A stretch of 64,000 nt of DNA from Candidatus Oxydemutatoraceae bacterium (lineage in GTDB: Bacteria > Pseudomonadota > Gammaproteobacteria > Poriferisulfidales > Oxydemutatoraceae). Of this stretch, positions 1 through 17,641 are shown in pieces. Under the pieces are notes generated by a model. The model made no database searches, was not told the DNA's origin, and saw only the letters and a list, made by a program, of their open reading frames with translations. The DNA lies in contig OZ244779.1 in the NCBI GenBank assembly GCA_965219575.1, positions 1,800,352 to 1,864,351 of the forward strand, read 5' to 3'. Position 1 is the first letter of the stretch; every line of letters starts with the position of its first letter. Made by a program: the position numbers and the translations under genes.

Positions 1-284
1 ACCCCCCATAAGAGCACCTTCTAGGAAAACTTTGGCTCGCACCTTTACATTAGTTGTCGACATATCTATTTGTGCATTTGCCGATAGAGAATACACGCTA
101 GCCGTTATAGCTATAACGCTTAAAAACGACATCCTAATAATCCCCCTGACGTTCTCCTTCTTTTTAGTGTCCATATCCAAAGTTAGTTTTCATGCTATTA
201 CTCTCGCAGATATACTAGGAATTGATACTCTAATGCGATAGTTTACCATGCAATGGTTGTCGCACCGGCATATGAACATAGGTT

Positions 285-3200
285 CTACTGGAGCGGACCC
301 TCTAAAAATACTTTGGCGCGTATCCTAATAGCTGAAGCAGTGACATCCACCGACACAGTCTCACTATCGCTTAACCCGCCGCTATCGGTGGCGGTGAAGG
401 TAATCGTTGCTTCTCCTTCTTGCTCGGCACTAATCACAAAGGTTGTAATCGTATCCGTGGTTATATCGGCAGCTTGCACCGGTGTTACCGAAACAATCGT
501 TCGGCTCGACGACATCGCCTCCAATGTAACAATATCGTCCAAATTGAAATTATCATCCGCTACCAAGACAGCGATTTGAGCCGCACTATTGACCGGTAGC
601 GTTTGCGCCGATGACGGTGTAATCATAATCGTCGGTGTAGTATTCGCCTCCACTCGTACTTCAAATTGTGCCGAGACCTCCGAGTTTGCTACACCTCTGT
701 CGTCGTTCACCGTCACCGTAATCACCGCACGACCGGCACCGACACCGCTAACCTCAAGCGTACGGGTGGCATCGTCGGTTGCGATAATCGTTGCGGTTGC
801 AATCATACTATCGCCGGTATTAATTCTTACACTGAGGCTATCGTCGGCATCGGCATCGTTTATCGCAACATCAAACTCGGTACTCAAACCTTCCAACAAC
901 CTAATCGGTTGCTCGGGAATACCGCTCAGCGTCGGTGCCGTATTGACACGCACCACTAGCTCTACACTATCGCTTAACCCACCGCGGTCGGTTGCGGTGA
1001 AGGTAATCGTCGCTTCTCCGCCTTGCTCGGCACTAATCCTAAAGGTTGTAATCGTATCCGTGGTTATATCGGTAACTTGCGCCGGTGTCACCGATATAAT
1101 CGTTTGGCTTGACGACATTGCCGCCAGTGCGACAATATCATTCAAATCGAAATTGCTATCCGTAACCGAGACGATGGTATCGGTCGTGGTATTGACCGGT
1201 AGCGTTTGCGCCGATGACGGTGTAATCATAATCGTCGGTGTAGTGTTCGCTTCGACTTGTACTTCAAACTCTGCCGAGACCTCCGAGTTTGCTACACTTC
1301 TGCCGTCATTTACCGTCACCGTAATCGTTGCTTCGCCCTCACCGACACCGCTAACCTCAAGCGTACGGGTGGCATCGTCGGTTGCGATAATCGTTGCGGT
1401 TGCAATCATGCTATCGCTGGTATCAATTCGTACATTGAGGCTATCGTCGGCATCGGCATCGTTTACCGCAACAGAAAGCTCGGTACTCAAACCTTCCAAC
1501 AACCTGATGGGTTGCTCGGGAATACCGCTCAGCGTCGGTGCCGTGTTGACACGCACCGCTAGTTCTATACTATCGCTTAACCCGCCGATGTCGGTTGCGG
1601 TGAATGTAATCGTCGCTTCTCCGCCTTGCTCGGCACTAATCCTAAAGGTTCTACTCGTATCCGTCGTTATATTAGCAACTTGCACCGGTGTCACCGAAAC
1701 AATCGTTCGGCTTGACGACATTGCCGCTAATGTGACAATATCATTCAAATCGAAATTGCTATCCGTAACCGAGACGATGGTATCGGTCGTGCTATTGACC
1801 GGTAGCGTTTGCGCTGATGACGGTGTAATCATAATCGTCGGTGTAGTATTCGCCTCCACTCGTACTTCAAATTGTGCCGAGACCTCAGAGTTTGCTACAC
1901 CTCTGTCGTCATTCACCGTCACCGTAATCACCGCACGACCGGCACCGACACCGCTAACCTCAAGCGTACGGGTGGCATCGTTGGTTGCGATAATCGTTGC
2001 GCTCGCAATCATGCTATCGCCGGTATCAATTCTTATACTGGGGCTGTCATCGGCATCGGCATCGTTTACCGCAACAGAAAGCTCGGTACTCAAACCTTCC
2101 AACAACCTGATGGGTTGTTCGGGAATACCGCTCAGCGTCGGTGCCGTATTGACACGCACCGCTAGTTCTACACTATCGCTTAACCCGCCGATGTCGGTTG
2201 CGGTGAATGTAATCGTCGCTTCTCCGCCTTGCTCGGCACTAATCCTAAAGGTTCTACTCGTATCCGTCGTTATACCGCCAGTTTGCGTTGATGTCACCGA
2301 AACAATCGTTCGGCTTGACGACATTGCCTCCAGTGTGACGATATCGTCCAGATTGAAATTATCATCCGCCACCGAGACAACGATAGCCGCCGTGCTATTG
2401 ATTGGTAGCGTTTGCGCTGTTGATGGTGTAATCATAATCGTCGGTGTAGTATTCGCTTCCACTTGCACTTCAAATTGTTCCGAGATCCTTGAATTTGCTA
2501 CACCTCTGCCGTCATCCACCGTCACCTTAATCGTTGCCTCACCCTCACCGACACCGACAACCTCAAGTGTGCGGGTGGCATCGTCGGTTGCGATAATCGT
2601 TGCGGTTGCAATCATGCTATCGCTGGTATCAATTCTTACATTGAGGTTATCGTCTGCATCGGCATCGTTTATCGCAACATCAAACTCAGTACTCAAACCT
2701 TCCAATAATCTGATGGGTTGCTCGGGAATACCGCTCAGCGTCGGTGCCGTATTCACACGCACCGCTAGCTCGGCATGAGCACTCAAGCTGTTTCGGTCGG
2801 TTGCGGTGAATCTAATCGTCGCTTCTCCGCCTTGCTCGGCATTCAGCACGAAGCGCACACTCGTATCGGTCGTTATGTCGGCAATGCGCGCCGGCATCAC
2901 CGAGACCACCGATGGGGTTGACGATACCGCCGTCAATGTAACAACATCGTCCAAATCGAAATTGCTGTCCGCAACCGAGACGATGGTATCGGTCGTGCTA
3001 TTGACTGGTAGCGTTAGTGCCGATGACGGTGCAAGCAATAACGTTGGAACGGTATTCTCTTCCACCGTCACATCAAACACCAAAGAAGCCGTTGCATTGG
3101 CTTCGCCGGTGCCGTCATCCACCGTTGCGGTAATCATCGTCTCACCGGCACGCTCTCCGCTAATCGTAAGCATGCGGGTGGTTCCGTCCCCGCTAATCAT

Positions 3201-6200
3201 TGCGCTTGCAATCGTATCGTCGGTGGAGGTGACTTCTACATTCAATGTACTGCCGTCCCTATCGTCCACCGACACCGGCACCATGATTAGCTCTCCCTCC
3301 AACAATGTGATATTGGTGTCTTGGGAGTCATCAACCCTAATCGTCGGTGTCGTGTTTTGTCCCAGCCTCGCACCTAGATTCGACGAGTATACACTCCTCG
3401 TATAGTCTTGCAAGTCGGTATACGCTATCCGCACACGGAACCTGTCGCCTGGGCTTACTTCATGGTCTTGAGGTGCCGATAACGTGGTCGGAACATCGTA
3501 GGAAATCTCAATATCGCCTAAAGTGCCACTCTGCCCGGCAATGTCTTCCCAACCCGAACCGTCACCCTCATCTATCAGACAATTCCTGTTGAGACTTCCT
3601 AGACACTGTTGCCAGTGATAGGTCATAGTTCCGCTCACGCCACCGTCGGTCTCACCCGTCGCATCTATGCCGGTAAAGATTAATATTGTCTCGGTCGTAG
3701 ATCTGGTGAGGTCATTTATCGACACCACGCCATTATCTTCCTTGTTCACCACTATCGCGTACACTCCTGTCGTAGTAGTCGCCCCGTCGCTCACTTCCAC
3801 CACAAAGCTCGCCGTCGCCGTAGTAGCAGTTGCGTCGGTCACAAAGTAGTCGCGAATAGTTAACGGTGCCGTCTCTCCCGACACATCGGCTTCGTCGGCA
3901 TTGATGCTACTCACACGCCAACGATAGCTTAAGTTGTCGAAGTTCTCGTCGGAAGCCTCGGCAGTCATCCTCACCATGCCACCTTCGCTCACCGGTGAAG
4001 GTGCGACATTAACCAGCGTAATCGTCGGTGCAATGTTCGGTACCGTATACACATCGGATTGCGTCGTCACCAATTGTCCGATGTTATCTACAACCGTTGC
4101 CTCCAGCCTATAGCGTGTGCCGGCGGTTCGCGACGGTCTATCGTAGGGGATGCGATATTCATTCTCGGTTGCACCGTCTATCAAAGTGTTGTTAATGAAC
4201 CACCGATAGCTCGTCGACGTAATCCCGTTGGCATCGGCGAGCGTTGAAGTCGTACTCAGCTGCCATCTATCGTCGCTGTCCGGTTCTATGCGTACAGCAC
4301 CGGTCAGCGGGGCATCTACCACTAGTGTGAAGCTCGCCTGCACGCGACCACCTCTGCCGTCATCCGCCGAGACTCTCACGATGGATCCTGCCGCGGTTTG
4401 GCTGGCATCGGCATTGGTTGCCGTGAAGGTCCATACACCGGTCATGGTGCTGAAGTTGCCTATCAAGCCACTCATCGGTTCTATTGCAATATCGTGTGTC
4501 AATGTGTCGCCGTCGGCATCGCTGAAGAAGTCGCTGATATCTCGTTCAAACGGCTCGCCGACCGTTGCGATAATAGCTCGAATCGGCACCCGAGGTGTCG
4601 GTGGAGTATTGACAGCTACCTCCAAAGTACGACTACTGCTTAAATCTGTGCCATCTGTTGCGGTCACTTTGATTTCCGCTATACCCGCTTTGTTCGCTCT
4701 CAGTGCCAAGGTTACACGGGTATCCGACCCGATATCGCCAATCCGCTCCGGCATCACCGATACGATCGTTCGGCTCGACGATGCTGCCGTCAATGTGATA
4801 CGATCGCCGAAGCTAAAATTACCATCCGATACACTAATCACTAGGTGTGCGGTGCTGCCCAGTTGTATCGGCTGTTCAGGTGTGGCAACAATCTCAAGTG
4901 CCGGGGCCACGGTGCCCCCCACCTGCACCGTAAATTGTGCCGAGACCTCCGAGTTCGCTACACCTCTGCCGTCGTTCACCGTCACGGTAATCGTCGTATT
5001 GCCGGCACCGACACCGACAATCTCAAGCGTGCGGACATTACCGGTGGTTGCGATAATCGTTGCGGTTGCAATCATGCTGTCGCTACTATCAATTCTTACA
5101 CTGAGACTATCTTCGGCATCGGCATCGTTTATCGCAATATCAAATTCGGTACTCAAACCTTCCAACAACCTGATGGGTTGCTCGGGAATACCGCTCAGCG
5201 TCGGTGCCGTATTGACACGCACTGGTATTTCTACACTATCGCTTAACCCACCGCGGTCGGTTGCGGTAAATGTGATTGTCGCTTCTCCGCTTCGCTCGGC
5301 ACTAATTATAAAGGTTGTAATCGTATCCGTGGTTATATCGGCAACTTGTGTCGGTGTCACCGAAACAATCGTTCGGCTTGACGACATCGCCTCCAGTGCG
5401 ACGATATCGTCCAAATTGAAGTTATCATCCGCCACCGAGACGAATATATGAGCCGTACTATTGATTGGTAGCGTTTGAGCCGATGACTGTGTAATCATAA
5501 TCGTCGGTGTAGTGTTCGCTTCCCGGGGGCTAATCATATAAATAGTAACCTCGCGATCGGCTTCGGTGACCGTGATGACTAATGCGGTGTTTGCATCTAT
5601 AGGAATAGGCTCGCTTCGCCCGTCGCCACCTTGGTTTGCAAAATAATCGGTATCCTCGCCTTGTCTAACTATTTTGATCGTCGCATCGGTATTATAGGCT
5701 TTTAATCGCAGGGTGATGTCACTAGTCCTAAAAGCAAAAAAACTTACAACATAATGGGCGGTTGTAGCCCCGAAAATTGGGGTCAATCTTGCACCGTGTG
5801 TCAATACTTCTAAATCTCTTAGACCTACGCCTTGACCCGACAACAAAATATCGCTATCCGCAGATTTGAGGATCGGATATTGGATGCTAGTACCGAAATC
5901 CCAGTCGCCGGTACTCCAGCCACTATATATCCCGGTTGCCGTTGTCGGTGATTGCAGTTCCACTAGGGTTTGCGTTGAACTGTTTGTGATAGTAGGAGAA
6001 CCAGAAGAAGAACCGACTAAGGTGTTAAAACCCGTCGCATAGCTATTCGTGATGGAACCACTAAAATACCAACCAACTAATCCGCCTACCCTGCGACCCC
6101 CTGATAAAACAGAACCCGTGGCATAGCTGTTCATGATGGAACCAACAGAATTTAAACCGACTAAACCACCTACATTATTATTTGCTTCAACAGAACCCAT

Positions 6201-9200
6201 CGCATAGCTATTCGTGATAGCACCCTGAGAATTATAACCGACTAAACCGCCTACCTCACTACTCCCTGAAACAGAACTCGTCGCATAGCTGTTCGTGATA
6301 GTGCCTCTATTAAAACCGACTAAACCGCCCACACTACTCCCTGAAACAGAACCCGTCGCATAGCTGTTCGTGATAGTACTACCAATATTCTCACCGACTA
6401 AACTACCTACATTAGAACCCCCAATAATGTCTACATTTAGCAAACCAACATTAGCGATTTCAGCATCACTGTTCGTATAACCAAACAAGCCTATGTTCCT
6501 CGTACCACTTCTGTCAATCCTAAGATTAGAAATCGTAAAACCATTGCCTTCAAACCTGCTTCTGAAAGCATTAGAAGAAGAATCCCCAAGCGGCTGCCAA
6601 CCTGCTCTCGTAGTCCATGTAATCCTATTGACTGTTGAGCTATAGCTGTCATCGTCGTTAAAATCTAAATCTCTCATCAATTCATAGCCCATGCATATAT
6701 CATTAGGACAACCCTCGGTGCTTCCCGTCGCCGTCTCGGCGGTTGCCCTATAGCTCGTGCCGTCCAGTTGAAAGCGGATTGCATTTAAGGTTTCTAAATC
6801 GTTGATATCTATCAGCCCGTTGCCATCGGCATCTACGGCGGTACTCGCTTCCATTGGTGCCGTATTGACCCGCACCAATAATTCTACACTATCGCTTAAC
6901 CCGCCGCTGTCGGTGGCGGTGAATGTGATCGTCGCTTCTCCACCTTTCTCGGCACTAATCATAAAGGTCGTACTCGTATTCGTGGTTATATTAGTAACTT
7001 GCACTGGTGTCACCGAAACAATCGTTCGGCTTGACGACATCGCTTCCAATGCAACTATATCGTCCAAATTGAAGTTATCATCCGCCACCGAGACAACGAT
7101 ATGAGCTGTACTATTGACCGATAGCGTTTGAGCCGATGACGGTGTAATCATAATCGCCGGTGCAATGTTCGCTCCTACTTGAGGGCTAACCATATGAATA
7201 CTAATCATATAAATAGTGGTTCCGGCATCGGCTTCGGTGACCGTAATGACTAATGTAGTGTTTGCGTTTATAGGAATAGGCTCGCTTCGCCCATCACTGC
7301 CCTTGTTTTCAAAATAATCGGTATCCTCGCCTTGTTTAACTACCTTAATCACCGCACCAGCATTATAGGCTTTCAATCGAAGGCTGATGTCGCTCGTCCC
7401 GGAAGCAAGAAAACTTATAACATAATGGGTCGTTGTCGCCCCGAAAATCGGGCTCAATCTTGTACCGGATGTCAATACTTCTAAATCTCTTAGACCTACG
7501 CCTTGACTCGACAACAGAATATCGCTATCTGCAAATTTGAGGATTGGATATTGGATACTAGTACCGAAATCCCAGTCATCGGTACTCCAGTTATAGTATA
7601 TATCACTGGAGGTACTGCTCGTGTCGGTCGCTACTTGCAATTGCTGTGTAGTTGCACCCCTACCACCGGAACTTGTCTGTATTCCGCTGGTACTTATATC
7701 CCAGTAGCTGTTTGTGATTGTGCCGTCATTATCACCAACTAAACCGCCTACACGACCACCTCCTGAAACAGAACCCGTCGCATAGCTGTTCATGATGGTG
7801 CCTCCATTATAACCAACTAAACCGCCGACGGAGAAATTACCACTCGCTGAAACAGAACCCGTCGCATAACTGTTCGTGATTATGCCTTGATTTCGACCGA
7901 CTAAACCGCCTACAATGAAATCTCCAGGAACAGAACCCGTTGCATAGCTGTTCATGATGGTGCCGTCATTCCAACCGACTAAACCGCCTGCATTGCCATC
8001 CCCTGGAACAGAACCCGTCGCATAGCTGTTCATGATGGTGCCATTCAAATTATAACCGACTAAACCGCCTGCATTGCCGTCCCCTGAAACAGAACCCGTC
8101 GCATAGCTATTCGTGATGGTACCGTCATTCCAACCGACTAAACCGCCAGCACTCGCACTATCACTCTCTAAAACAAAACTCGCCGCATAGCTGTTCGTGA
8201 TTGTGCCACCACTATTCCGACCGACTAAACCGCCTGCAGTGCGGGTCCCTGAAACAGAACCCGTCGCATAGCTGTTCGTGATAATACCGTCATTCCAACC
8301 GACTAAACCGCCTACATTGGAAGCACCCATGATATCTACATTTAACAAACCAACATTAGCAATTTCGGCACTACCTCCCGTAGAACCGAACAAACCTATG
8401 TTGCTTGTGCCACTTCTGTCAATCATAAGATTAGAAATCGTGAAACCGTTGCCTTCAAACTGACCGCTGAAAGCATTAGAGAGAGAATTCCCAATCGGCT
8501 GCCAACCGGCTCCCGTAGTCCATATAATTCTGTTGGCTATTGAACTATAGCTGCCATCTTCGTTAAAGTCTAAATCTCTCGTCAATTCATAGCCTCTGCA
8601 TCCGTTATTAGGGCAACCCATCGAAACCTTAGGCACCGTCTCACTCTCTCTATAGCCCGTCCCGTCCAGTTGATAACGCATCGCATTCAGTCTCTCTAAG
8701 TTATCAACCTCTATCAAACCATCGTCATCCCTATCGACATCTCCGTTAAACTCATAATAATTAAGGTAGAGAGTATAAGTAATAGTCTGTGTTGTTTCAC
8801 CACCATTCTCAACCTCAATGGTGATTGTAGTTATCCCGTCTGTGTTTAACGAAATCATACCACTTTCATCACCACTAGCTATGGCTGGACTTCTAGTTTC
8901 TTCATCAGCCGTAATATAAACCTTGGCACCGGGATTTAATGTTATCGGTCTGAATTGTATTGTGCTGGCACTACTAACTACCGTCCCTCTGTAGTTCGGC
9001 ACTACCACATCAAAATCAGGCGACAGATTACCCTCCACTAATTGCAATTCACTCAAACCATATCTAAGTGCAGGCGACAACAAGCTACCGCAGACAGGTA
9101 AATCTGTTGTAGTATCGCCCACACGACGACATTCGCTAATATCTGTGTTAGGATTATCCGTATATTTGAGCACCGGGTATTGGACGCTAGTGCCGAAATC

Positions 9201-10178
9201 CCAGTCATCGGTACTCCAGTTATAGTATATCTCGGCAGAGGTGCTGCCCGGACCAGTTGCTGCTTGCAGTTCTACCGTGGTTTGACTCGTGCCACCGGCA
9301 CTTGTCTCTATTCCACTGCTATTTATATCCCAATAGCTGTTTGTAGTAGTTCCGAAATTACGACCAACTAAACCGCCTACATTATCACCGCTCCCTGAAA
9401 CAGAACTCGTTGCATAGCTGTTCGTGATGATGCCACCATTCTCGCCGACTAAACCGCCTACACCGAAATCTCCTGAAACAGAACCCGTCGCATAGCTGTT
9501 CGTGATGATGCCACCATTCTCGCCGACTAAACCGCCTACACCGAAATCTCCTGAAACAGAACCCGTCGCATAGCTGTTCGTGATGGTGCCTCTATTCTCA
9601 CCGACTAAACCGCCTACACTATTATTTCCTGAAACAGAACCCGTCGCATAGCTGTTCGTGATGGTGCCTCTATTCTCACCAACTAAACCACCTATCTGAT
9701 TTCTCCCTTCAACAGAACCCGTCGCATAGCTGTTCGTGATGGTGCCTCTATTCTCACCGACTAAACCGCCTACCCTATCGCTAAAACCTCCTATTATATT
9801 TACATTTAATAAACCCAGATTAGCAATTTCAGCACTACTTCCCGTATGACCAAACAAGCCTATTTCACTCGTGTCACTTCTGTCAATCCTAAGATTAGAA
9901 ATCGTAAAAACGTTGCCTTCAAACTTGCCTCTGAAAGCATTAGAAGAATCCCCAATCGGCTGCCAACCTGCTCCCGTAGTCCATGTAATCCTATTAGCTA
10001 TAGAACCATAACTGCCAGCGTCGTTAAAGTCTAAATCTCTCGTCAGTTCATAGCCTCTGCATCCGTCATTAGGGCAACCTGTCACAACTTTAGGTGCCGC
10101 CTCGCTCTCTCTATAGCCCGTCCCGTCCGGTTGATAACGTATCGCATTCAGTCCCTCTAAATCATCAATCTCTATCAA
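285..10178 (-). CDS. Giant repetitive surface/adhesin protein, 3' (C-terminal) portion. It was cut off from its 5' portion by an IS insertion. It contains dockerin-like Ca-binding segments, GLUG-type GGLVG Gly-rich repeats, cadherin-like beta-sandwich domains and about 12 tandem Ig-like domains. This fragment has no signal peptide of its own.
   Basis: 3297-aa ORF. It has repeated DxDGNGLIDINDLExLNAIRYQxDG segments and many VGGLVGxNxGTITNSYATGSVSG units. LSPALRYGL...TYTLYL domains match the cadherin-like beta-sandwich pattern. A ~202-aa module at the C-terminus is repeated five times nearly identically. The upstream frame continues without interruption into the IS target duplication at 10219-10226. 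Confidence 0.85.
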   Translation of the reverse strand: MIEIDDLEGLNAIRYQPDGTGYRESEAAPKVVTGCPNDGCRGYELTRDLDFNDAGSYGSIANRITWTTGAGWQPIGDSSNAFRGKFEGNVFTISNLRIDRSDTSEIGLFGHTGSSAEIANLGLLNVNIIGGFSDRVGGLVGENRGTITNSYATGSVEGRNQIGGLVGENRGTITNSYATGSVSGNNSVGGLVGENRGTITNSYATGSVSGDFGVGGLVGENGGIITNSYATGSVSGDFGVGGLVGENGGIITNSYATSSVSGSGDNVGGLVGRNFGTTTNSYWDINSSGIETSAGGTSQTTVELQAATGPGSTSAEIYYNWSTDDWDFGTSVQYPVLKYTDNPNTDISECRRVGDTTTDLPVCGSLLSPALRYGLSELQLVEGNLSPDFDVVVPNYRGTVVSSASTIQFRPITLNPGAKVYITADEETRSPAIASGDESGMISLNTDGITTITIEVENGGETTQTITYTLYLNYYEFNGDVDRDDDGLIEVDNLERLNAMRYQLDGTGYRESETVPKVSMGCPNNGCRGYELTRDLDFNEDGSYSSIANRIIWTTGAGWQPIGNSLSNAFSGQFEGNGFTISNLMIDRSGTSNIGLFGSTGGSAEIANVGLLNVDIMGASNVGGLVGWNDGIITNSYATGSVSGTRTAGGLVGRNSGGTITNSYAASFVLESDSASAGGLVGWNDGTITNSYATGSVSGDGNAGGLVGYNLNGTIMNSYATGSVPGDGNAGGLVGWNDGTIMNSYATGSVPGDFIVGGLVGRNQGIITNSYATGSVSASGNFSVGGLVGYNGGTIMNSYATGSVSGGGRVGGLVGDNDGTITNSYWDISTSGIQTSSGGRGATTQQLQVATDTSSTSSDIYYNWSTDDWDFGTSIQYPILKFADSDILLSSQGVGLRDLEVLTSGTRLSPIFGATTTHYVISFLASGTSDISLRLKAYNAGAVIKVVKQGEDTDYFENKGSDGRSEPIPINANTTLVITVTEADAGTTIYMISIHMVSPQVGANIAPAIMITPSSAQTLSVNSTAHIVVSVADDNFNLDDIVALEAMSSSRTIVSVTPVQVTNITTNTSTTFMISAEKGGEATITFTATDSGGLSDSVELLVRVNTAPMEASTAVDADGNGLIDINDLETLNAIRFQLDGTSYRATAETATGSTEGCPNDICMGYELMRDLDFNDDDSYSSTVNRITWTTRAGWQPLGDSSSNAFRSRFEGNGFTISNLRIDRSGTRNIGLFGYTNSDAEIANVGLLNVDIIGGSNVGSLVGENIGSTITNSYATGSVSGSSVGGLVGFNRGTITNSYATSSVSGSSEVGGLVGYNSQGAITNSYAMGSVEANNNVGGLVGLNSVGSIMNSYATGSVLSGGRRVGGLVGWYFSGSITNSYATGFNTLVGSSSGSPTITNSSTQTLVELQSPTTATGIYSGWSTGDWDFGTSIQYPILKSADSDILLSGQGVGLRDLEVLTHGARLTPIFGATTAHYVVSFFAFRTSDITLRLKAYNTDATIKIVRQGEDTDYFANQGGDGRSEPIPIDANTALVITVTEADREVTIYMISPREANTTPTIMITQSSAQTLPINSTAHIFVSVADDNFNLDDIVALEAMSSSRTIVSVTPTQVADITTDTITTFIISAERSGEATITFTATDRGGLSDSVEIPVRVNTAPTLSGIPEQPIRLLEGLSTEFDIAINDADAEDSLSVRIDSSDSMIATATIIATTGNVRTLEIVGVGAGNTTITVTVNDGRGVANSEVSAQFTVQVGGTVAPALEIVATPEQPIQLGSTAHLVISVSDGNFSFGDRITLTAASSSRTIVSVMPERIGDIGSDTRVTLALRANKAGIAEIKVTATDGTDLSSSRTLEVAVNTPPTPRVPIRAIIATVGEPFERDISDFFSDADGDTLTHDIAIEPMSGLIGNFSTMTGVWTFTATNADASQTAAGSIVRVSADDGRGGRVQASFTLVVDAPLTGAVRIEPDSDDRWQLSTTSTLADANGITSTSYRWFINNTLIDGATENEYRIPYDRPSRTAGTRYRLEATVVDNIGQLVTTQSDVYTVPNIAPTITLVNVAPSPVSEGGMVRMTAEASDENFDNLSYRWRVSSINADEADVSGETAPLTIRDYFVTDATATTATASFVVEVSDGATTTTGVYAIVVNKEDNGVVSINDLTRSTTETILIFTGIDATGETDGGVSGTMTYHWQQCLGSLNRNCLIDEGDGSGWEDIAGQSGTLGDIEISYDVPTTLSAPQDHEVSPGDRFRVRIAYTDLQDYTRSVYSSNLGARLGQNTTPTIRVDDSQDTNITLLEGELIMVPVSVDDRDGSTLNVEVTSTDDTIASAMISGDGTTRMLTISGERAGETMITATVDDGTGEANATASLVFDVTVEENTVPTLLLAPSSALTLPVNSTTDTIVSVADSNFDLDDVVTLTAVSSTPSVVSVMPARIADITTDTSVRFVLNAEQGGEATIRFTATDRNSLSAHAELAVRVNTAPTLSGIPEQPIRLLEGLSTEFDVAINDADADDNLNVRIDTSDSMIATATIIATDDATRTLEVVGVGEGEATIKVTVDDGRGVANSRISEQFEVQVEANTTPTIMITPSTAQTLPINSTAAIVVSVADDNFNLDDIVTLEAMSSSRTIVSVTSTQTGGITTDTSRTFRISAEQGGEATITFTATDIGGLSDSVELAVRVNTAPTLSGIPEQPIRLLEGLSTELSVAVNDADADDSPSIRIDTGDSMIASATIIATNDATRTLEVSGVGAGRAVITVTVNDDRGVANSEVSAQFEVRVEANTTPTIMITPSSAQTLPVNSTTDTIVSVTDSNFDLNDIVTLAAMSSSRTIVSVTPVQVANITTDTSRTFRISAEQGGEATITFTATDIGGLSDSIELAVRVNTAPTLSGIPEQPIRLLEGLSTELSVAVNDADADDSLNVRIDTSDSMIATATIIATDDATRTLEVSGVGEGEATITVTVNDGRSVANSEVSAEFEVQVEANTTPTIMITPSSAQTLPVNTTTDTIVSVTDSNFDLNDIVALAAMSSSQTIISVTPAQVTDITTDTITTFRISAEQGGEATITFTATDRGGLSDSVELVVRVNTAPTLSGIPEQPIRLLEGLSTEFDVAINDADADDSLSVRINTGDSMIATATIIATDDATRTLEVSGVGAGRAVITVTVNDDRGVANSEVSAQFEVRVEANTTPTIMITPSSAQTLPVNSAAQIAVLVADDNFNLDDIVTLEAMSSSRTIVSVTPVQAADITTDTITTFVISAEQEGEATITFTATDSGGLSDSETVSVDVTASAIRIRAKVFLEGPLQ
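290..3400. repeat. Near-identical tandem DNA repeats, period about 606 bp and about 5 copies, inside the giant adhesin gene. More diverged copies continue to about 5500.
   Basis: Antisense ORFs at 666-959, 1257-1562 and 1872-2165 are near-identical and spaced about 606 bp apart. The protein shows 5 copies of a 202-aa unit. Confidence 0.8.
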
Positions 10179-10226
10179 ACCATCATCATCCCTATCAACA
10201 TCACCGTTAAACTCATAATAATTAAG

Positions 10227-10979
10227 GGTACTTGACTAGTTTAGGGACAAAATCCCACTCAAATATCCCTTACCATCTTCATTAGCATATCATACTTTTG
10301 GGAGGCTGAAAGGTGCCTGTGATTGAATCGCCACTCGCATTCTTTTAGATGAAGATGGAAATGTTTTCTCGACACGCCGCAGAACTTTGTTAATCTCCTT
10401 TTTGCCCATCCCCAAAAGTTTTCAATGCCATTGATATGTCTAGTACCACTGCCCAGTGTCTTTGAATGATTGATGCGGTAGTGTTTGTATCCATTCAACA
10501 CCAACCCGCCATAAGCTCTCCATTTGTCTGTGTATATAGTACTCTGATGTCCCACTAAACGCTTGATAATAGGTCGTATCCCGCTCTTTGAAGCATTTCG
10601 TATCACCTGCGTATAGACCTTCCCATCTCTTTTTAATATGCCGAATACCGGTACTTTGTTCGGTGCACCTCTACCTCTTTTGTCTCCCTTTTTGCGACCA
10701 CCGAAGTAGGACTCATCCAACTCTACCTCGCCGGAGAATACGCTCGTCTTCTCGCAGTGTTGTGCAATTCTTTCTCGGATTATATTGACATATCTATTCA
10801 CTGTATTTCTATTGACCCCGGCTGCTTGTGCGATTTGGGTTGCACTCAAATCAAGGGCAAAATACCTTACAATTTGCCTTATTTTCCTGTTTGAAATATG
10901 TGCCCCTCTAAAATGCCTGTTAGGTGTTGTCATTACTAGTTATTTTATCAAATCGTACTCCCTAAACTAGTCAAGTACC
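10227..10979 (-). mobile_element. IS1595-family insertion sequence, 753 bp. It has perfect 21-bp terminal inverted repeats GGTACTTGACTAGTTTAGGGA. An 8-bp target-site duplication TAATTAAG lies at 10219-10226 and 10980-10987.
   Basis: The inverted repeats were read directly at 10227-10247 and 10959-10979. The flanking 8-mer is identical on both sides. The single internal ORF is an IS1595-type transposase. Confidence 0.9.
10259..10933 (-). CDS. IS1595-family (ISXO2-like) transposase
   Basis: 224-aa protein with an N-terminal HTH region (ATQIAQAAGVNRNTVNRY). It carries the characteristic YTDKWRAYGGL and INGIENFWGWAKRRL motifs of IS1595 transposases. Confidence 0.85.
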   Translation of the reverse strand: MTTPNRHFRGAHISNRKIRQIVRYFALDLSATQIAQAAGVNRNTVNRYVNIIRERIAQHCEKTSVFSGEVELDESYFGGRKKGDKRGRGAPNKVPVFGILKRDGKVYTQVIRNASKSGIRPIIKRLVGHQSTIYTDKWRAYGGLVLNGYKHYRINHSKTLGSGTRHINGIENFWGWAKRRLTKFCGVSRKHFHLHLKECEWRFNHRHLSASQKYDMLMKMVRDI

Positions 10980-13264
10980 TAATTAAGATACAAAGTATAA
11001 ATAACAATCTGTGTTGTTTCACCACCATTCTCAACCTCAATGGTGATTGCAGTTATCCCGTCGGTGTTTAACGAAATCATACTACTCTCATCACCACTAT
11101 CTATAGCTATACCTCTAGCTTCTTCATCAGCCCTAATATAAACCTTGGCATCGGGATTTACTGTTATTGGTCTGAACCGGATTGTGCTTGTACTATGAAC
11201 TACCGTTCCTCTGTAGCTCGGCAATATCACATCAAAATCAGGCAATAAATCGCCTTCCACTAATTGCAATTCACCCAAACCATACCTCAGTGCAGGCGAC
11301 AACAAACTACCACAGACAGGTAAATCTGTTGCAGTATCACTTACACTACGACATTCGCTAATATCCGTGTTAGGATTATCCGTATATTTGAGCACCGGGT
11401 ACTGGCTATCAGTGCCGAAATCCCAATTCGTGTTACTCCATTCGTAATAGGGTTTGCCGGGGTCTGTGCCTTGTGCACTTTCTGCTTTCAATTCCACCGT
11501 GGTTTTACTCGTGCCACCGTCACTTATCTTTATTCCGCTGGTATTTATATCCCAGTAGCTACTCGTGATAGTACCATCATTATTCCGACCGATTAAACCG
11601 CCTACACCATTACTCCCTTCAACAGAACCCGTCGCATAGCTGTTTGCGATGGCACCACTAAAATAATTCTGACCGACTAAACCGCCTGCATTGCCGTCCC
11701 CTGAAACAGAACCCATCGCATAGCTGTTCGTGATGGTACCGCCGTTCTCACCGACTAAACCGCCTACATTAAAACGATCCCCAATAACAGAACCCGTCGC
11801 ATAGCTGTTCGTGATATTGCCGCCCCTATTACCACCGACCAAACCGCCTACATAGTCATCTCCTGAAACAAAACCCGTCGCATAGCTGTTCGTGATATTG
11901 CCGGCACTATTATCACCGACTAAACCGCCTACACGACCACTCCCTGAAACAGAACTCGTCGCATAGCTGTTCACGATGGTGCCGCCGTTCTCACCGACTA
12001 AACCGCCGAAACCGAAGATATCGAAGAAACCGCGAAGATCACTACTCCCTGAAACAGAACCTGTCGCATAGCTGTTTGTGATGGTGGCACCAAAACGATT
12101 CCGGCCGACTAAACCGCCAAAACCGGCTAAACGACCGAAACCGCCGAAATCGAAGAAATCGCGAAGATCACCACTCCCTGAAACAGAACCCGTCGCATAG
12201 CTGTTCACGATGGTGCCGCCGTTCTCACCGACTAAACCGCCGAAACCGACTAAACCGCCGAAACCGACTAAACCGCCGAAATCGCGAAGATTACCACTCC
12301 CTGAAACAGAACCCGTCGCATAGCTGTTCGTGATAGTGCCACCGTCATTCCTACCGACTAAACCGCCGAAACCGACTAAACCGCCGAAATCGAAGAAATC
12401 GCGAAGATTACCACTCCCTGAAACAGAACCCGTCGCATAGCTGTTCGTGATAGTGCCACCGTCATTCCTACCGACTAAACCGCCTACACTGCTACTCCCT
12501 AAAACAGAACCCGCCGCATAGCTGTTCGTGATTGTGCCACCGTCATTCCTACCGACTAAACCGCCTACACTGCTACTCCCTAAAACAGAACCCGTCGCAT
12601 AGCTGTTCGTGATTGTGCCGCCATTCTCACCGACTAAACCGCCTACCCCATTGCTAAAACCTCCGATTATATTTACATTTAGTAAGCCCAAATTAGCGAT
12701 TTCAGCACCACCGTCCGTACGACCAAACAAGCCTATTTGACCTGTGCCACCTCTGGCAATCGTAAGATTAGAAATCGTAAAATCGTTGCCTTCAAACCAA
12801 CCGCTGAAAGCATTAGAAAAGTCCCCGATCGGCTGCCAACCTGCTCCCGTAGTCCATATAACCTTGTTAGCTGTTGAACTATAGCTGTCATCGTCGTTAA
12901 AATCTAAGTTTCTTTTCAATTCATAGCCTCTGCAGATATCATTAGGGCAGCCTTCAGTAATCCCCGTCGCCCCGGCGGTTGCTTTATAGCTGGTGCCGTC
13001 CGGTTGAAAGCGGATTGCATTTAAGGTTTCCAAATCGTTGATATCTATCAGCCCGTTGCCATCGGCATCTACGACGGTATTAGTTTGAGCAACTATGTTC
13101 GTGCTGAATAGTGCGAGTAGAATAATCAACAAGAGGGTTTTCATGGAAATTATATATATTGTAAATACTGGGATTGTACAGCCAATATGCACACATGGGA
13201 CTGTTGAAAAAGTACCGCTCTGCACGAATTCAACCGCTTTTCGCCACATAATTATCCAACCCAC
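10979..13264 (-). CDS. Giant adhesin, 5' (N-terminal) portion. It has a Sec signal peptide, a dockerin-like segment, GLUG-type repeats and a cadherin-like beta-sandwich domain. It is terminated by a stop codon created at the IS junction.
   Basis: The N-terminus MKTLLLIILLALFSTNIVAQT looks like a signal peptide. Its architecture matches the modules of the 285-10178 fragment. The stop codon TAG spans the target duplication and the first base of the IS inverted repeat. Confidence 0.85.
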   Translation of the reverse strand: MGWIIMWRKAVEFVQSGTFSTVPCVHIGCTIPVFTIYIISMKTLLLIILLALFSTNIVAQTNTVVDADGNGLIDINDLETLNAIRFQPDGTSYKATAGATGITEGCPNDICRGYELKRNLDFNDDDSYSSTANKVIWTTGAGWQPIGDFSNAFSGWFEGNDFTISNLTIARGGTGQIGLFGRTDGGAEIANLGLLNVNIIGGFSNGVGGLVGENGGTITNSYATGSVLGSSSVGGLVGRNDGGTITNSYAAGSVLGSSSVGGLVGRNDGGTITNSYATGSVSGSGNLRDFFDFGGLVGFGGLVGRNDGGTITNSYATGSVSGSGNLRDFGGLVGFGGLVGFGGLVGENGGTIVNSYATGSVSGSGDLRDFFDFGGFGRLAGFGGLVGRNRFGATITNSYATGSVSGSSDLRGFFDIFGFGGLVGENGGTIVNSYATSSVSGSGRVGGLVGDNSAGNITNSYATGFVSGDDYVGGLVGGNRGGNITNSYATGSVIGDRFNVGGLVGENGGTITNSYAMGSVSGDGNAGGLVGQNYFSGAIANSYATGSVEGSNGVGGLIGRNNDGTITSSYWDINTSGIKISDGGTSKTTVELKAESAQGTDPGKPYYEWSNTNWDFGTDSQYPVLKYTDNPNTDISECRSVSDTATDLPVCGSLLSPALRYGLGELQLVEGDLLPDFDVILPSYRGTVVHSTSTIRFRPITVNPDAKVYIRADEEARGIAIDSGDESSMISLNTDGITAITIEVENGGETTQIVIYTLYLN
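12229..12282. repeat. In-frame 18-bp microsatellite, unit accgactaaaccgccgaa, three copies here encoding (GGLVGF)n. Shorter tracts of one or two copies lie nearby.
   Basis: Direct tandem copies are seen in the DNA. The protein reads DFGGLVGFGGLVGFGGLVGENGG. Confidence 0.75.
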
Positions 13265-13849: not shown

Positions 13850-15121
13850 ATGAAGACTTTTGACAATGCAACCTGTCCGTTTTGTGCTTTGACATGCGAT
13901 GACTTAAGCGTTAAAAGCAACAACGGTAAACTCATCGTAGACGAAGACTTGCCGACATTTTGCCGTGCGAGCTATGAAAACGCATCTCAAATCTCTACGA
14001 CCAAACCTCGCTATAAAGGCAAAGAGATTACGCAAACCGAGGCTGTTGCCGAGGCGAGTAAAATGCTCAAACAAGCTAAACGCCCTTTGTTCGGCGGGCT
14101 GATTACCGACATACAAACGATGCGTGCGTTGGTGCCTCTGGCTAGGCAGTGCAATGCAACCTTAGATCACTTAGACAGCGATAAAACTTTACGCAATCTT
14201 AGAATAATGCATGGTTTCGGCATCGTCGGTGCCACACTCTCGGAAATACATCGCCGTGCCGATTTGCTTATCTTTGTAGGCAGTCGTTTATTCGACGATT
14301 ATCCACGATTACTTCAAAGAGTTTATAAGAATAAAACTCAAAAAAAATCGGTTTTAATCGGTCCTTGGCAACGCGAGAACATACCGGATATTTTGAAGGC
14401 GGATTGCGATATCGTGAATACCCCACCCGAAGCATTCCCCGATGTGATACAAAAGCTCGGGATGTATATCGATAGACAATTCGAGCAACACGAGCAACAC
14501 TCGAAAGCCGAGCCTCAAAACGATAAAGACGACGGCACGCTCTATGCAAAACTCGCAGCCGATATAGAACGCGCCGAGTATCCGGCTTTTGTTTGGTCGG
14601 CCAAAGATATGGATTACTCGCATGCCGATCTAGGCATCCTGCTACTCGCCCGAGTAATCAAAAAAATAAACTTAAGAAAACGTTGCGTCAGCTTGGTATT
14701 GAGCGGTAATCGCGGTGCGGGTAACACGCAGAGCGTTTGTTTATGGCAGAGCGGTTATCCCGGGTGTCTATCGTTTAATTCGGAACAGGCATACTACAAC
14801 CCGCTACATAACCGCACGCCCGAAATACTAAAAAACCGCCGTGCCGATCTACTCGTTTGGATTGCTTCCATCCATCCCGAACCGCCGCCGCCGAGTGACT
14901 TGCCGACGATCGTTTTTGCACATCCTAAGATTGCCGAAGGATTAACAAACGATTTAGTCGTGCCGTGCGGTGTCCCCGGCGTAGACCATACCGGCTATAG
15001 TTATCGCACCGACGGTGTTATAATACTGCCGCTACGCAAACTGCGAGACAGCGCACTTCCGGCATTGCACGAAATGCTACAAGACATACAACTTCAACTG
15101 GGTCAACAAAATGATGATTAA
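13850..15121 (+). CDS. fhcB: Formyltransferase/hydrolase complex subunit B (homolog of formylmethanofuran dehydrogenase subunit B)
   Basis: N-terminal CPFCALTCDDL and WQSGYPGCLSFN...YYNP match the FwdB/FhcB family. Confidence 0.85.
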   Translation: MKTFDNATCPFCALTCDDLSVKSNNGKLIVDEDLPTFCRASYENASQISTTKPRYKGKEITQTEAVAEASKMLKQAKRPLFGGLITDIQTMRALVPLARQCNATLDHLDSDKTLRNLRIMHGFGIVGATLSEIHRRADLLIFVGSRLFDDYPRLLQRVYKNKTQKKSVLIGPWQRENIPDILKADCDIVNTPPEAFPDVIQKLGMYIDRQFEQHEQHSKAEPQNDKDDGTLYAKLAADIERAEYPAFVWSAKDMDYSHADLGILLLARVIKKINLRKRCVSLVLSGNRGAGNTQSVCLWQSGYPGCLSFNSEQAYYNPLHNRTPEILKNRRADLLVWIASIHPEPPPPSDLPTIVFAHPKIAEGLTNDLVVPCGVPGVDHTGYSYRTDGVIILPLRKLRDSALPALHEMLQDIQLQLGQQNDD

Positions 15122-16736: not shown

Positions 16737-17641
16737 AAGGTATCACTATCAACGGCGTAGAAATAGAGAATACCTACGCCGAGGCTTTCGGCATGAGAGC
16801 GACCCGCATCATTATCACTGCGATCAACTACAAATGGGCGCATTATGCGGCAAGCACGACGGTCGGTTTTGCAACTTCGGTGATAGGTTGCAATGTAGAA
16901 GCCGGTATAGAACGCCGCTATAAATCCTCCGAGACACCCGACAGCAGACCGGGCTATTCGGTTTTGCTGTTTGCGACTTCCACCGAAAGTCTAAGCGATC
17001 AACTGACGCGACGAGTCGCTCAATGCGTGCTGACCTGCCCTACCAGTGCGGTATTCTCCGGCATGGCCGGCGAGCGCAGAATTGCACTCGGACGTTATGT
17101 TCGTTATTTCGGAGACGGTTATCAGTCTTCCAAAGTGATAGGGGGAACACGCTATTGGCGGGTGCCGGTGATGGACGGCGAGTTTATCTGCGAGGACGAT
17201 ACCGGCGTGGCATCGGGAATCGGCGGCGGTAATTTTTTGATCTTTGCTCGCTCGTCGTCGCAAGCCCTACAGGCATGCGAAGCCGCAATCGATAGCATCT
17301 CGGACTTGCCGAATCTTGTTCTGCCGTTTCCCGGCGGCGGTGTGCGCTCGGGATCCAAGGTCGGCTCTCGCTATAAGTTCCTCGGCGCATCTACAAACGA
17401 ACAGTATTGTCCTACCTTAAAAGGCATTGTTGATAGCAAACTGCGCGCCAATACCGGGGCGGTGATGGAAATCGTGATAGACGGGCTCAATGTGCAAGAC
17501 ATCATAGATGCGATGCGAGTCGGCATTACCGCAGTCTGCGAGTTGGGATTATCCGAGGGAATAACGACAATCTCGGCGGGCAATTACGGTGGAAATCTAG
17601 GAAAATATCAATTTCATTTGTGGGAGATTATAGGCGCATGA
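16721..17641 (+). CDS. fhcD: Formylmethanofuran--tetrahydromethanopterin N-formyltransferase
   Basis: The N-terminus MSNPIEGITINGVEIENTYAEAFGMRATRIIITA is the typical Ftr start (INGVEIEDTFAEAF). Confidence 0.85.
   Translation: MSNPIEGITINGVEIENTYAEAFGMRATRIIITAINYKWAHYAASTTVGFATSVIGCNVEAGIERRYKSSETPDSRPGYSVLLFATSTESLSDQLTRRVAQCVLTCPTSAVFSGMAGERRIALGRYVRYFGDGYQSSKVIGGTRYWRVPVMDGEFICEDDTGVASGIGGGNFLIFARSSSQALQACEAAIDSISDLPNLVLPFPGGGVRSGSKVGSRYKFLGASTNEQYCPTLKGIVDSKLRANTGAVMEIVIDGLNVQDIIDAMRVGITAVCELGLSEGITTISAGNYGGNLGKYQFHLWEIIGA

What the first reader, a model, noticed from the sequence alone, without database searches (positions are those of the whole stretch)
10219..10987. IS1595-family insertion cleanly bisects a >4000-aa adhesin gene
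The 761-aa ORF (10979-13264) ends ...TLYLN followed by a stop. The 3297-aa ORF's frame, read upstream of its annotated Met, gives LNYYEFNGDVDRDDDGLIEIDDLEGLNAIRYQ. The internal module of the 3' fragment has the equivalent TLYLNYYEFNGDVDRDDDGLIEVDNLERLNAMRYQ. The two halves therefore rejoin exactly across a 753-bp element with perfect 21-bp inverted repeats and an 8-bp duplication TAATTAAG. The stop codon of the 5' half is made from two duplication bases plus the first IS base. Perfect repeats and perfect duplication imply a recent event. The signal-peptide-bearing 761-aa stub could still be exported. The 3297-aa part has no signal peptide, so it is probably a dead fragment unless it is driven and exported some other way.
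Basis: seen in the sequence. Interest (0 to 1): 0.6.

Follow-up and report, generated by a model that had tools for sequence, protein, structure and literature searches.

The report
Insertion sequence splits giant surface-protein gene
A small mobile DNA element (an IS1016-type insertion sequence of the IS1595 family) has recently jumped into the coding sequence of a 4,032-residue secreted repeat protein, probably in a sponge-symbiont bacterium, and cut the gene in two; this is a clean but ordinary gene knock-out by a transposable element.

Summary
Window 10227-10979 is a 753-bp insertion sequence. It has perfect 21-bp terminal inverted repeats, an intact 224-aa transposase (10259-10933, minus strand) and a perfect 8-bp target duplication, TAATTAAG, at 10219-10226 and 10980-10987.

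The transposase matches the IS1595 family models strongly and carries the catalytic signature blocks of the IS1016 subgroup. Size, repeat ends and the AT-rich 8-bp duplication also fit that subgroup.

Removing 10227-10987 fuses the 5' stub and the 3' ORF into one uninterrupted frame. It is 4,032 aa from the ATG that precedes the signal peptide, or 4,072 aa from the upstream GTG. The rebuilt junction aligns without gaps to the paralogous module junction in the same gene and to intact homologues elsewhere.

The same insertion is present in an ENA metagenome contig. Diverged copies of the element (86-89% identical) occur in Candidatus Porisulfidus (sponge symbiont) genomes.

The 9.9-kb orphan 3' frame is still fully open, so the event is recent. 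No empty-site allele was found.

Verdict: real, correctly interpreted, and biologically ordinary; an undescribed member of a known IS group.

One side observation is more unusual. This protein family carries a conserved extreme C-terminal tail, ...RIRxKVFLEGPLQ-COOH, that matches no curated family model.

The parts
10219..10226 (.). Target-site duplication copy 1, TAATTAAG. On the gene strand it reads CTT AAT TA, i.e. Leu720, Asn721 and the first two bases of Tyr722.
10227..10979 (-). 753-bp insertion sequence of the IS1595 family, IS1016 subgroup. Its transposase runs in the same direction as the interrupted gene. GC is 42%, against 48-49% for the host gene.
10227..10247 (+). Terminal inverted repeat at the transposase-distal end, GGTACTTGACTAGTTTAGGGA (21 bp, perfect).
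   Evidence: 9 of the first 14 bases match the ISApl4 repeat GGGGCTGTACTAGA
10959..10979 (-). Terminal inverted repeat at the transposase-proximal end, the exact reverse complement of 10227-10247.
10259..10933 (-). Transposase gene, 224 aa and intact. It has a weak N-terminal helix-turn-helix and a DDE_Tnp_IS1595 domain. It carries the IS1016-type blocks E-L-DESYFG(54)IYTD...HINGIENFWGWAK(15)LHLKECEWRFN.
10980..10987 (.). Target-site duplication copy 2, TAATTAAG. Bases 10980-10981 plus IS base 10979 form the TAG stop of the 5' stub.
10979..13144 (-). 5' stub of the interrupted gene: 721 aa from ATG 13144 (761 aa if GTG 13264 is used). It holds the signal peptide plus the complete first module: a calcium-binding-like DxDxDG segment, a GLUG repeat array and a beta-sandwich segment. 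It ends ...TLYLN*.
13085..13144 (-). Predicted Sec signal peptide MKTLLLIILLALFSTNIVAQ. This was judged by eye (n-region Lys, hydrophobic core, IVA-Q); no predictor was available.
   Evidence: homologues P0143 and P0185 start almost identically
285..10226 (-). Orphan 3' part of the gene: 3,313 sense codons plus stop, with no stop or frameshift inside. It holds modules 2-4, then the Big_2/Big_9 Ig-like arrays and the C-terminal tail. ORF-listing runs it 285-10178 from a TTG.
288..329 (-). Conserved extreme C-terminal tail of the family, IRIRAKVFLEGPLQ, followed by the stop at 285-287.

Best explanation
An autonomous 753-bp IS1016-subgroup (IS1595-family) insertion sequence transposed into the coding sequence of a single 4,032-aa secreted GLUG/Ig-like repeat protein.

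Shown:
- The transposase made the staggered 8-bp cut typical of this group at an AT-rich octamer, TAATTAAG. That octamer lies within three residues of the boundary between module 1 and module 2.
- Repair duplicated the octamer.
- The IS end supplies the third base of a TAG stop, so translation from the native start now ends after residue 721.
- The remaining 3,313 codons are cut off from the native start codon and signal peptide. They have no start with a ribosome-binding site of their own.

Inferred:
- The remainder is an untranslated, or at least unexported, remnant.
- The stub keeps the signal peptide but loses the family's conserved C-terminal tail, so the gene is functionally knocked out or at best reduced to a one-module secreted fragment.
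- The event is evolutionarily recent. The host is probably a Candidatus Porisulfidus-like sponge symbiont in which this IS lineage is resident and multi-copy.
For: Anatomy:
- Perfect 21-bp inverted repeats, unique in the window, with 0 expected by chance.
- Perfect 8-bp duplication.
- Intact 224-aa transposase with DDE_Tnp_IS1595 (E 2e-34) and NCBIfam transpos_IS1595 (E 8e-51, 172.9 bits against a cut-off of 75).
- The IS1016 signature blocks are all present with near-identical spacing, compared with the ISApl4 motif quoted in PMC12561309.
- ISApl4 is 712 bp and makes A/T-rich 8-bp duplications such as TTTAATTA.

One gene, not two:
- Excision gives a single 4,085-codon open frame.
- At DNA and protein level the rebuilt junction matches the module 2/3 junction of the same gene.
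- It aligns gap-free with five independent homologues.
- Intact homologues of 1,333-2,922 aa align collinearly across the site.
- The family has 22,469 representatives, many of 2,000-7,800 aa with up to 24 matched stretches per protein.

Real, not an assembly error:
- The same insertion with the same junctions is in ENA contig ERZ25072152:ctg44525 at 99.97% identity.

Resident IS lineage:
- Copies 86-89% identical occur in two Ca. Porisulfidus genomes. One has an intact transposase and an 8-bp duplication, AAAATTAT, and also splits a gene.
- The 90%-identity cluster of the transposase has 39 members. Several variants lie on one 2.37-Mb contig.

Recency:
- An open 9.9-kb orphan frame has P(intact) of about 0.08 at 0.2% neutral divergence and 0.002 at 0.5%.

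No independent expression signals for the 3' part:
- There are no Shine-Dalgarno-like starts.
- Promoter-like sites do not exceed chance.
Against: - No transcript or protein data exist, so 'dead fragment' is inferred rather than shown. The IS has no predicted terminator on the gene strand, so read-through transcription of the 3' part is possible.
- No empty-site allele was found for comparison. The exact 33-mer is absent from JGI metagenomes, but those metagenomes also lack the IS, so this says little.
- The second assembly may derive from the same or a closely related sample, so it is not strong evidence of fixation.
- The organism assignment rests only on where related IS copies were found. 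The source genome itself was not located.
Confidence: 0.93

Rival explanations
1. The insertion is a reversible or selected switch rather than a dead-end knock-out. Precise excision through the 8-bp duplication would restore the giant protein (phase variation). Alternatively, the one-module, tail-less 721-aa secreted stub is itself the selected product.
For: - The IS lies within three residues of a module boundary, so the stub is a complete signal peptide plus module 1.
- The 3' part is perfectly intact.
- The same allele is seen in a second assembly.
- Reversible IS insertion into surface-structure genes is known in other bacteria (own knowledge: IS492 in Pseudoalteromonas eps, IS1301 in Neisseria siaA, IS256 in Staphylococcus ica).
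Against: - No empty-site allele was found.
- Precise excision has not, to my knowledge, been described for IS1016-type elements.
- The module-boundary position is explained more simply by the AT-rich octamer there. The same octamer also occurs, unoccupied, at the module 2/3 junction.
- Intactness of the 3' part is equally explained by recency.
Confidence: 0.05
2. Assembly artefact: the IS was placed into a highly repetitive gene by mis-joining of reads.
For: The gene is full of 78-165-bp tandem repeats and 80-92% identical kilobase modules. Such sequence is hard to assemble.
Against: - Assemblers do not create a perfect 8-bp target duplication whose removal restores a 4,085-codon frame.
- A second contig carries identical junctions.
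Confidence: 0.01
3. Two originally separate genes, with the IS in the spacer between them.
For: Each half on its own resembles complete smaller family members. Proteins of 290-700 aa of this family exist.
Against: - The rebuilt sequence has no spacer, stop or start at the site.
- The stub lacks the family's C-terminal tail, and the 3' part lacks a signal peptide and a start codon with a ribosome-binding site.
- The junction is homologous to internal junctions of intact homologues.
Confidence: 0.01

Closest known systems
ISApl4 / IS1016-subgroup elements of the IS1595 family (PMC12561309; Siguier et al. 2009 as cited there)
   Same: - Single-ORF element of about 0.7 kb.
- Transposase of about 220 aa with the same signature blocks (DESYFG ... 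YTD ... HINGIENFW ... KECExRFN).
- Short perfect terminal repeats starting with GG and sharing ACTAG.
- 8-bp A/T-rich target duplications.
- Frequent intragenic insertions and multi-copy bursts.
   Different: - 753 bp against 712 bp, and 21-bp against 14-bp inverted repeats.
- The best annotated relatives in the plasmid collection are only 44-51% identical in protein, so by the usual ISfinder criteria this would be a new IS. ISfinder itself could not be queried.
- The host is probably an uncultured sponge symbiont.
Related IS copies in Candidatus Porisulfidus MAGs (OZ241323.1, CBDAVG010000002.1)
   Same: - Same 21-bp terminal repeat.
- 86-89% DNA identity over the full 753 bp.
- One copy (L005) has an intact 224-aa transposase and an 8-bp duplication, and splits a gene.
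   Different: - Three of the four full-length copies have broken transposase genes and no duplication, so they are older, decayed insertions.
- None is at the orthologous site.
GLUG-motif proteins, e.g. the Streptococcus pneumoniae IgA1 protease N-terminal region (PDB 6xja)
   Same: - GLUG repeats: 24 stretches, Pfam E 4.5e-117.
- A weak sequence match to the GLUG region of the IgA1 protease, E 6e-6.
- An AlphaFold model of a small homologue gives a confident all-beta repeat core at residues ~140-330.
   Different: - No protease domain.
- Multi-module architecture with Ig-like arrays, a Sec signal peptide and a distinctive C-terminal tail.
- Function not tested; 'adhesin' is a guess.
IS-mediated inactivation of surface-structure genes (own knowledge: IS256 in icaC, IS1301 in siaA, IS492 in eps)
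   Same: An IS lands in a surface-component gene with a target duplication, and the gene would be restorable by precise excision.
   Different: Here there is no evidence of reversibility or of a phenotype.

Membership tests
IS1595 family | Transposase with the DDE_Tnp_IS1595 (ISXO2-like) catalytic domain | tested here: met
   Pfam PF12762 E 2.3e-34, covering 3-153 of 153 profile positions. NCBIfam NF033547 E 8.1e-51, 172.9 bits against a cut-off of 75.
IS1595 family | Terminal inverted repeats flanked by an 8-bp target-site duplication | tested here: met
   21/21-bp inverted repeats and TAATTAAG on both sides.
IS1016 subgroup of IS1595 | Catalytic signature E-DESYFG(53)VYTD...HINGIENFWSQAK(14)LFIKECEFRFN, as quoted for ISApl4 | tested here: met
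   The window transposase has ELDESYFG(54)IYTD...HINGIENFWGWAK(15)LHLKECEWRFN (compared).
IS1016 subgroup of IS1595 | Small size (about 700-750 bp), a single ORF, and 7-9-bp A/T-rich duplications | tested here: met
   753 bp with one 224-aa ORF. The duplication has 1 G/C base in 8. The size range 700-745 bp is recalled from the ISfinder table (own knowledge), so 753 bp is marginally above it.
IS1016 subgroup of IS1595 | Terminal sequence resembling GGGGCTG... | tested here: inconclusive
   GGTACTTGACTAGT against the ISApl4 repeat GGGGCTGTACTAGA gives 9 of 14 identical, sharing GG..CT..ACTAG. Only one reference repeat was available.
Active (autonomous) IS | Demonstrated transposition | not testable with these tools
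   Only indirect evidence: an intact ORF, perfect ends, a perfect duplication, and several near-identical transposase variants on one 2.37-Mb contig.
Secreted GLUG-repeat giant protein family ('adhesin' in the finding) | GLUG repeats plus Ig-like domains in a multi-module chain | tested here: met
   Glug x24 stretches, Big_2, Big_9. There are 22,469 homologous representatives, many above 2,000 aa.
Secreted GLUG-repeat giant protein family ('adhesin' in the finding) | N-terminal signal peptide and the conserved C-terminal tail ...R[IV]RxK[VL]FLEG[PA]L[QR] | tested here: met
   The rebuilt protein has both. 51 of 148 top homologues end in the tail. The signal peptide was judged by eye only.
Secreted GLUG-repeat giant protein family ('adhesin' in the finding) | Adhesive function | not testable with these tools
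   No characterised close homologue. The nearest solved structure is the GLUG region of an IgA1 protease, E 6e-6.
IS-based phase variation | Coexisting occupied and precisely excised (empty) alleles in a population | tested here: inconclusive
   The exact empty-site 33-mer is absent from JGI metagenome contigs. The IS itself is also absent there, so the organism is simply not sampled in that collection.

The most novel reading that the evidence does not exclude
The insertion is a natural domain-swap experiment rather than mere decay. It lands at a module boundary and uncouples the Sec signal peptide from a so-far undescribed, family-wide C-terminal tail (...RIRxKVFLEGPLQ-COOH). If that tail is a surface-anchoring or sorting tag, the insertion converts a tethered 4,032-aa surface protein into a released 721-aa one-module protein. 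The conversion could be reversed by precise excision through the 8-bp duplication, making it an IS-driven on/off or long/short switch for a host-interaction protein in a sponge symbiont.
Probability: 0.06. Interest if true: 0.45.

Novelty: new member of a known kind. Interest (0 to 1): 0.15.

Why it matters
- For annotation: the two ORFs (761 and 3,297 aa as called) should be treated as one IS-disrupted gene. The IS is an unnamed IS1016-type element that can be registered.
- For biology: it is one data point for ongoing IS activity and gene inactivation in what is probably a Candidatus Porisulfidus-like sponge symbiont, hitting a member of a very large family of giant secreted GLUG proteins that are plausible host-interaction factors.
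- In itself it does not challenge anything known. The conserved C-terminal tail noticed on the way may deserve its own study.

Tried and rejected
- Source genome and alleles, by exact-protein look-up: the 761-aa and 721-aa stubs, the 701-aa protein at 21380-23485, the citrate synthase and P0055 were all not on record.
- Empty-site search: the exact 33-mer TATACTTTGTATCTTAATTATTATGAGTTTAAC had 0 hits in JGI metagenome contigs. The 21-bp terminal repeat also had 0 hits there, so that collection does not sample this organism.
The orthologous locus in the two Porisulfidus genomes could therefore not be fetched.
- Promoter and terminator scans around the IS and upstream of the gene found nothing above shuffle expectation. 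There is thus no support for an IS-borne outward promoter driving the 3' part.
- The search for homologous proteins with the junction query returned only proteins under 600 aa, with no exact uninterrupted allele. Long intact homologues came from the search of protein representatives instead.
- The three +1 homopolymer differences in the second contig were considered as evidence of pseudogene decay. I rejected this as unproven, because the contig name suggests about 2x coverage and all three are homopolymer +1 errors.
- I considered that the protein's abrupt end (...KVFLEGPLQ*) marked a second truncation. I rejected this because 51 of 148 homologues end in the same way.
- An AlphaFold model of a small tail-bearing homologue was confident only for the GLUG core. 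The tail had pLDDT below 50, so it gave no information on how the tail works.
- Literature searches for the tail motif and for GLUG proteins in sponge symbionts found nothing relevant.
- The NCBI taxonomy copy has no entry for Candidatus Porisulfidus.
Full report
**1. The observation**

Reading window 10100-11100 and checking by script shows TAATTAAG at 10219-10226 and again at 10980-10987. Between them lies a 753-bp segment, 10227-10979. Its first 21 bases, GGTACTTGACTAGTTTAGGGA, are the exact reverse complement of its last 21. The complementarity stops abruptly after base 21. The 21-mer occurs nowhere else in the 64-kb window even with three mismatches allowed, and never in 100 dinucleotide-preserving shuffles. 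BLAST of the element and of its protein against the window finds no further full or partial copy.

The only long ORF inside the segment is 10259-10933 on the minus strand, 224 aa.

**2. What the element is**

The 224-aa protein matches Pfam DDE_Tnp_IS1595 over the whole profile (E 2.3e-34). It also matches the NCBIfam model transpos_IS1595 (E 8.1e-51, 172.9 bits against a cut-off of 75). A weak helix-turn-helix match sits at the N-terminus.

It carries the blocks ELDESYFG-(54)-IYTD ... HINGIENFWGWAK-(15)-LHLKECEWRFN. A 2025 paper on ISApl4 gives E-DESYFG(53)VYTD----Y(24)HINGIENFWSQAK(14)LFIKECEFRFN as the signature of the IS1016 subgroup of the IS1595 family (PMC12561309).

ISApl4 is 712 bp and has 14-bp perfect repeats, GGGGCTGTACTAGA. 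The first 14 bases of the repeat here share 9 of 14 positions with it, including GG..CT..ACTAG. ISApl4 makes A/T-rich 8-bp duplications such as TTTAATTA and TTAATTTA. TAATTAAG is of the same type.

The nearest annotated relatives in the plasmid collection are 44-51% identical in protein: IS1595-family transposases of Trichlorobacter and Francisella, and the ISEc75 group. This is therefore an undescribed member of a well-known IS group.

**3. The interrupted gene**

Deleting 10227-10987 (the IS plus one duplication copy) gives one open frame of 4,085 codons between stops on the minus strand. From the GTG that the ORF listing uses (13264) the product is 4,072 aa. From the ATG at 13144 it is 4,032 aa and begins MKTLLLIILLALFSTNIVAQ, a textbook Sec signal peptide by eye. 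Two family members, P0143 and P0185, start with almost the same sequence, so the ATG is the more likely start and the stub is 721 aa.

The stop of the stub, TAG, is the reverse complement of 10979-10981: one IS base plus two duplication bases.

The rebuilt junction reads ...ENGGETTQIVIYTLYLN|YYEFNGDVDRDDDGLIEIDD... The module 2/3 junction of the same gene reads ...ENGGETTQTITYTLYLNYYEFNGDVDRDDDGLIEVDN... At DNA level the two differ at only a few positions, and the paralogous site contains the same CTTAATTA octamer, unoccupied.

Five independent homologues from other contigs (P0003, P0004, P0005, P0007, P0016) align across the site with essentially no indel; the only gap at the junction is a one-residue gap in P0005. 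Intact homologues of 1,333-2,922 aa align collinearly across it.

Comparison with the start of module 1 puts the insertion within about three residues of a module boundary. TNTVVDADGNGLIDINDLETLNAIRFQPDG directly follows the signal peptide, and EFNGDVDRDDDGLIEIDDLEGLNAIRYQPDG follows the insertion site.

**4. Nature of the protein**

Pfam finds 24 GLUG-motif stretches (E 4.5e-117), Big_2 and Big_9 Ig-like domains. The DNA shows the corresponding 78-165-bp tandem repeats.

The nearest solved structure by sequence is the GLUG region of the Streptococcus pneumoniae IgA1 protease (6xja, E 6e-6). An AlphaFold model of a small homologue is confident only for an all-beta repeat core.

An exhaustive HMMER search with the paralogous junction region finds 22,469 cluster representatives at E<=1e-3 and 1,258 at E<=1e-30. 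Many are 2,000-7,800 aa long with up to 24 matched stretches. A multi-module giant is therefore the normal state of this family.

'Adhesin' is a reasonable guess from signal peptide, repeats and Ig-like domains, but nothing here tests it.

**5. Consequences of the insertion**

The transposase gene points the same way as the host gene. The frame of the 3' part opens only at 10235, inside the IS end. Its first possible start codons are TTG 10178 and GTG 10085, and neither is preceded by a Shine-Dalgarno-like sequence.

Promoter-like and terminator-like sites in 10000-11200 do not exceed shuffle expectation, and none is suitably placed. Read-through transcription of the 3' part is therefore possible. 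Independent translation and export are unlikely. This is inference; there are no expression data.

The family also has a conserved extreme C-terminal tail (section 8). The insertion leaves the signal peptide on the stub and the tail on the orphan fragment, so neither product has both.

**6. Age**

The repeats and the duplication are perfect, and 3,313 orphan codons are still open. For this sequence, 2.9% of point substitutions create a stop. If indels occur at one tenth of the substitution rate, the probability of remaining intact is 0.28 at 0.1% neutral divergence, 0.08 at 0.2% and 0.002 at 0.5%. The insertion is therefore recent, unless the fragment is under selection.

**7. Elsewhere**

The exact transposase is on an ENA metagenome contig, ERZ25072152:ctg44525_2x_l (16.9 kb), and on a 2.37-Mb NCBI/ENA contig that could not be read.

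The ENA contig is the same locus, 99.97% identical over 12.3 kb, with the same IS at the same junctions. It differs by one SNP and three +1 indels, all in homopolymers and all in the 3' fragment. The contig name suggests about 2x coverage, so these are more likely read errors than pseudogene decay, but decay cannot be excluded.

The 21-bp repeat finds four loci in two Candidatus Porisulfidus MAGs among GTDB representatives. They hold four full-length copies 86-89% identical to this one, plus one fragment. One copy (L005) has an intact 224-aa transposase and an 8-bp duplication, AAAATTAT. It splits a gene whose intact paralogue lies 2 kb away. The other three have broken transposase genes and no duplication.

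The 90%-identity cluster of the transposase has 39 members, several on the same 2.37-Mb contig.

Candidatus Porisulfidus is listed among known gammaproteobacterial sponge symbionts (PMC12988363) and has been used as an outgroup to SUP05 sulfur oxidisers (PMC9123188).

The rest of the window is ordinary chromosome: H4MPT-pathway genes, asparagine synthase, AmiC-like amidase, citrate synthase, histidinol dehydrogenase and DAHP synthase. The source genome itself was not found. The organism assignment is therefore tentative.

No empty-site allele was found. The only large collection I could still scan lacks the organism altogether.

**8. Side observation: the C-terminal tail**

The giant protein ends ...IRIRAKVFLEGPLQ*. 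At first this looked like a second truncation, because the next gene downstream begins with a signal peptide followed by ...VKVRAKVFLEGALMGG.

However, 51 of the 148 best family representatives end within their last 9-12 residues in [KR][VIL][FLY]LEG.., typically (I/V)R(I/V)RxKVFLEGPL(Q/R). About eight more have degenerate versions.

Eight small GLUG proteins of 290-510 aa from the first search end the same way. The tail follows three different kinds of preceding sequence.

A second secreted protein in the window ends ...ILRIKLFLEGALQ*. It lies at 32409-35240 and has five Cadherin-like beta-sandwich domains.

No Pfam or NCBIfam model covers the tail, and the searchable literature does not contain the motif. 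The AlphaFold model gives it pLDDT below 50.

It behaves like an autonomous terminal tag for sorting, anchoring or strand docking, and it has no hydrophobic membrane segment. I did not resolve it.

**9. Verdict**

What it describes is a recent insertion of an unnamed IS1016-type element into a giant secreted repeat-protein gene, probably of a sponge symbiont. That is a known kind of event. Interest is low (0.15).

The most novel reading not excluded treats the insertion as a reversible or selected long/short switch that uncouples the signal peptide from a new C-terminal tag. I give it about 6%.

Noticed in passing
window 288-329 (-), 35199-35237 (+), 1-48 (-); homologues P0128-P0275 and P0027-P0064: There is a conserved extreme C-terminal tail, (I/V)R(I/V)RxK(V/L)FLEG(P/A)L(Q/R)-COOH. 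It ends the giant GLUG protein, an unrelated Cadherin-like x5 secreted protein in the same window, 51 of 148 giant homologues and 8 small GLUG proteins. The same 14-residue element also sits directly after the signal peptide of the downstream FGE-sulfatase protein. It has no Pfam, NCBIfam or literature match, no membrane segment, and an AlphaFold pLDDT below 50. It may be an undescribed sorting or anchoring tag.
   Followed up: partly
window 1-132 (-), continued in L006:12152-13563: The gene downstream of the giant protein encodes a 1,368-aa secreted protein (length from the metagenome contig). It has an FGE-sulfatase (formylglycine-generating-enzyme-like) domain, faint HYR hits and repeated ~70-aa modules. 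It runs off the start of the window.
   Followed up: partly
L006 (ENA ERZ25072152:ctg44525_2x_l) against window 8797, 8570, 5365 and 308: The second assembly of the same IS-bearing locus differs by three +1 homopolymer indels (A3->A4, T3->T4, T5->T6) and one SNP (G->A, Asp->Asn). All lie in the orphan 3' fragment. They are probably low-coverage read errors, but genuine frameshift decay of the orphan fragment in a sister strain is not excluded.
   Followed up: partly
L005:749-1501 (OZ241323.1, Ca. Porisulfidus): A related copy of the IS (89% identical, intact transposase, duplication AAAATTAT) also splits a gene. The halves lie at L005:1496-2146 and 303-776, and an intact 361-aa paralogue lies at L005:3856-4938. 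The copies in L002, L003 and L004 have broken transposase genes and no duplication.
   Followed up: partly
window 8780-8800 (-), paralogous junction at residue 1204: The same octamer CTTAATTA (TAATTAAG on the + strand) occurs at the module 2/3 junction but is unoccupied. The target is thus repeated inside the gene.
   Followed up: yes
window 15111-18453 (+): A cluster of an amidohydrolase (FhcA-like), a formylmethanofuran:tetrahydromethanopterin formyltransferase (FTR + FTR_C) and a GXGXG-motif protein. These are H4MPT-linked C1-oxidation genes lying next to the giant-protein locus.
   Followed up: no
window 18813-19508 (-): A 231-aa protein with a full Ion_trans domain (E 3e-44) and a weak polycystin-channel match. 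It looks like a single-domain voltage-gated-type cation channel.
   Followed up: no
window 30851-31936 (-), 35352-36515 (+), 40130-41407 (-): Defence-type genes lie around the second surface-protein gene: an N6/N4 DNA methylase, an AAA_14/DUF4143 ATPase and a GmrSD-like endonuclease. The N-terminal domain of the endonuclease matches only the last third of the profile, so it may be truncated.
   Followed up: no
window 21380-23485 (+): A 701-aa protein whose only family match is an RNA polymerase alpha C-terminal-domain-like segment at residues 222-260. It is otherwise unannotated.
   Followed up: no
output: the search for homologous proteins returned only proteins shorter than 600 aa for a query from a family dominated by 2,000-7,000-aa members. 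It did not list the window's own ORFs. The word-index search seems to under-report very long proteins.
   Followed up: no
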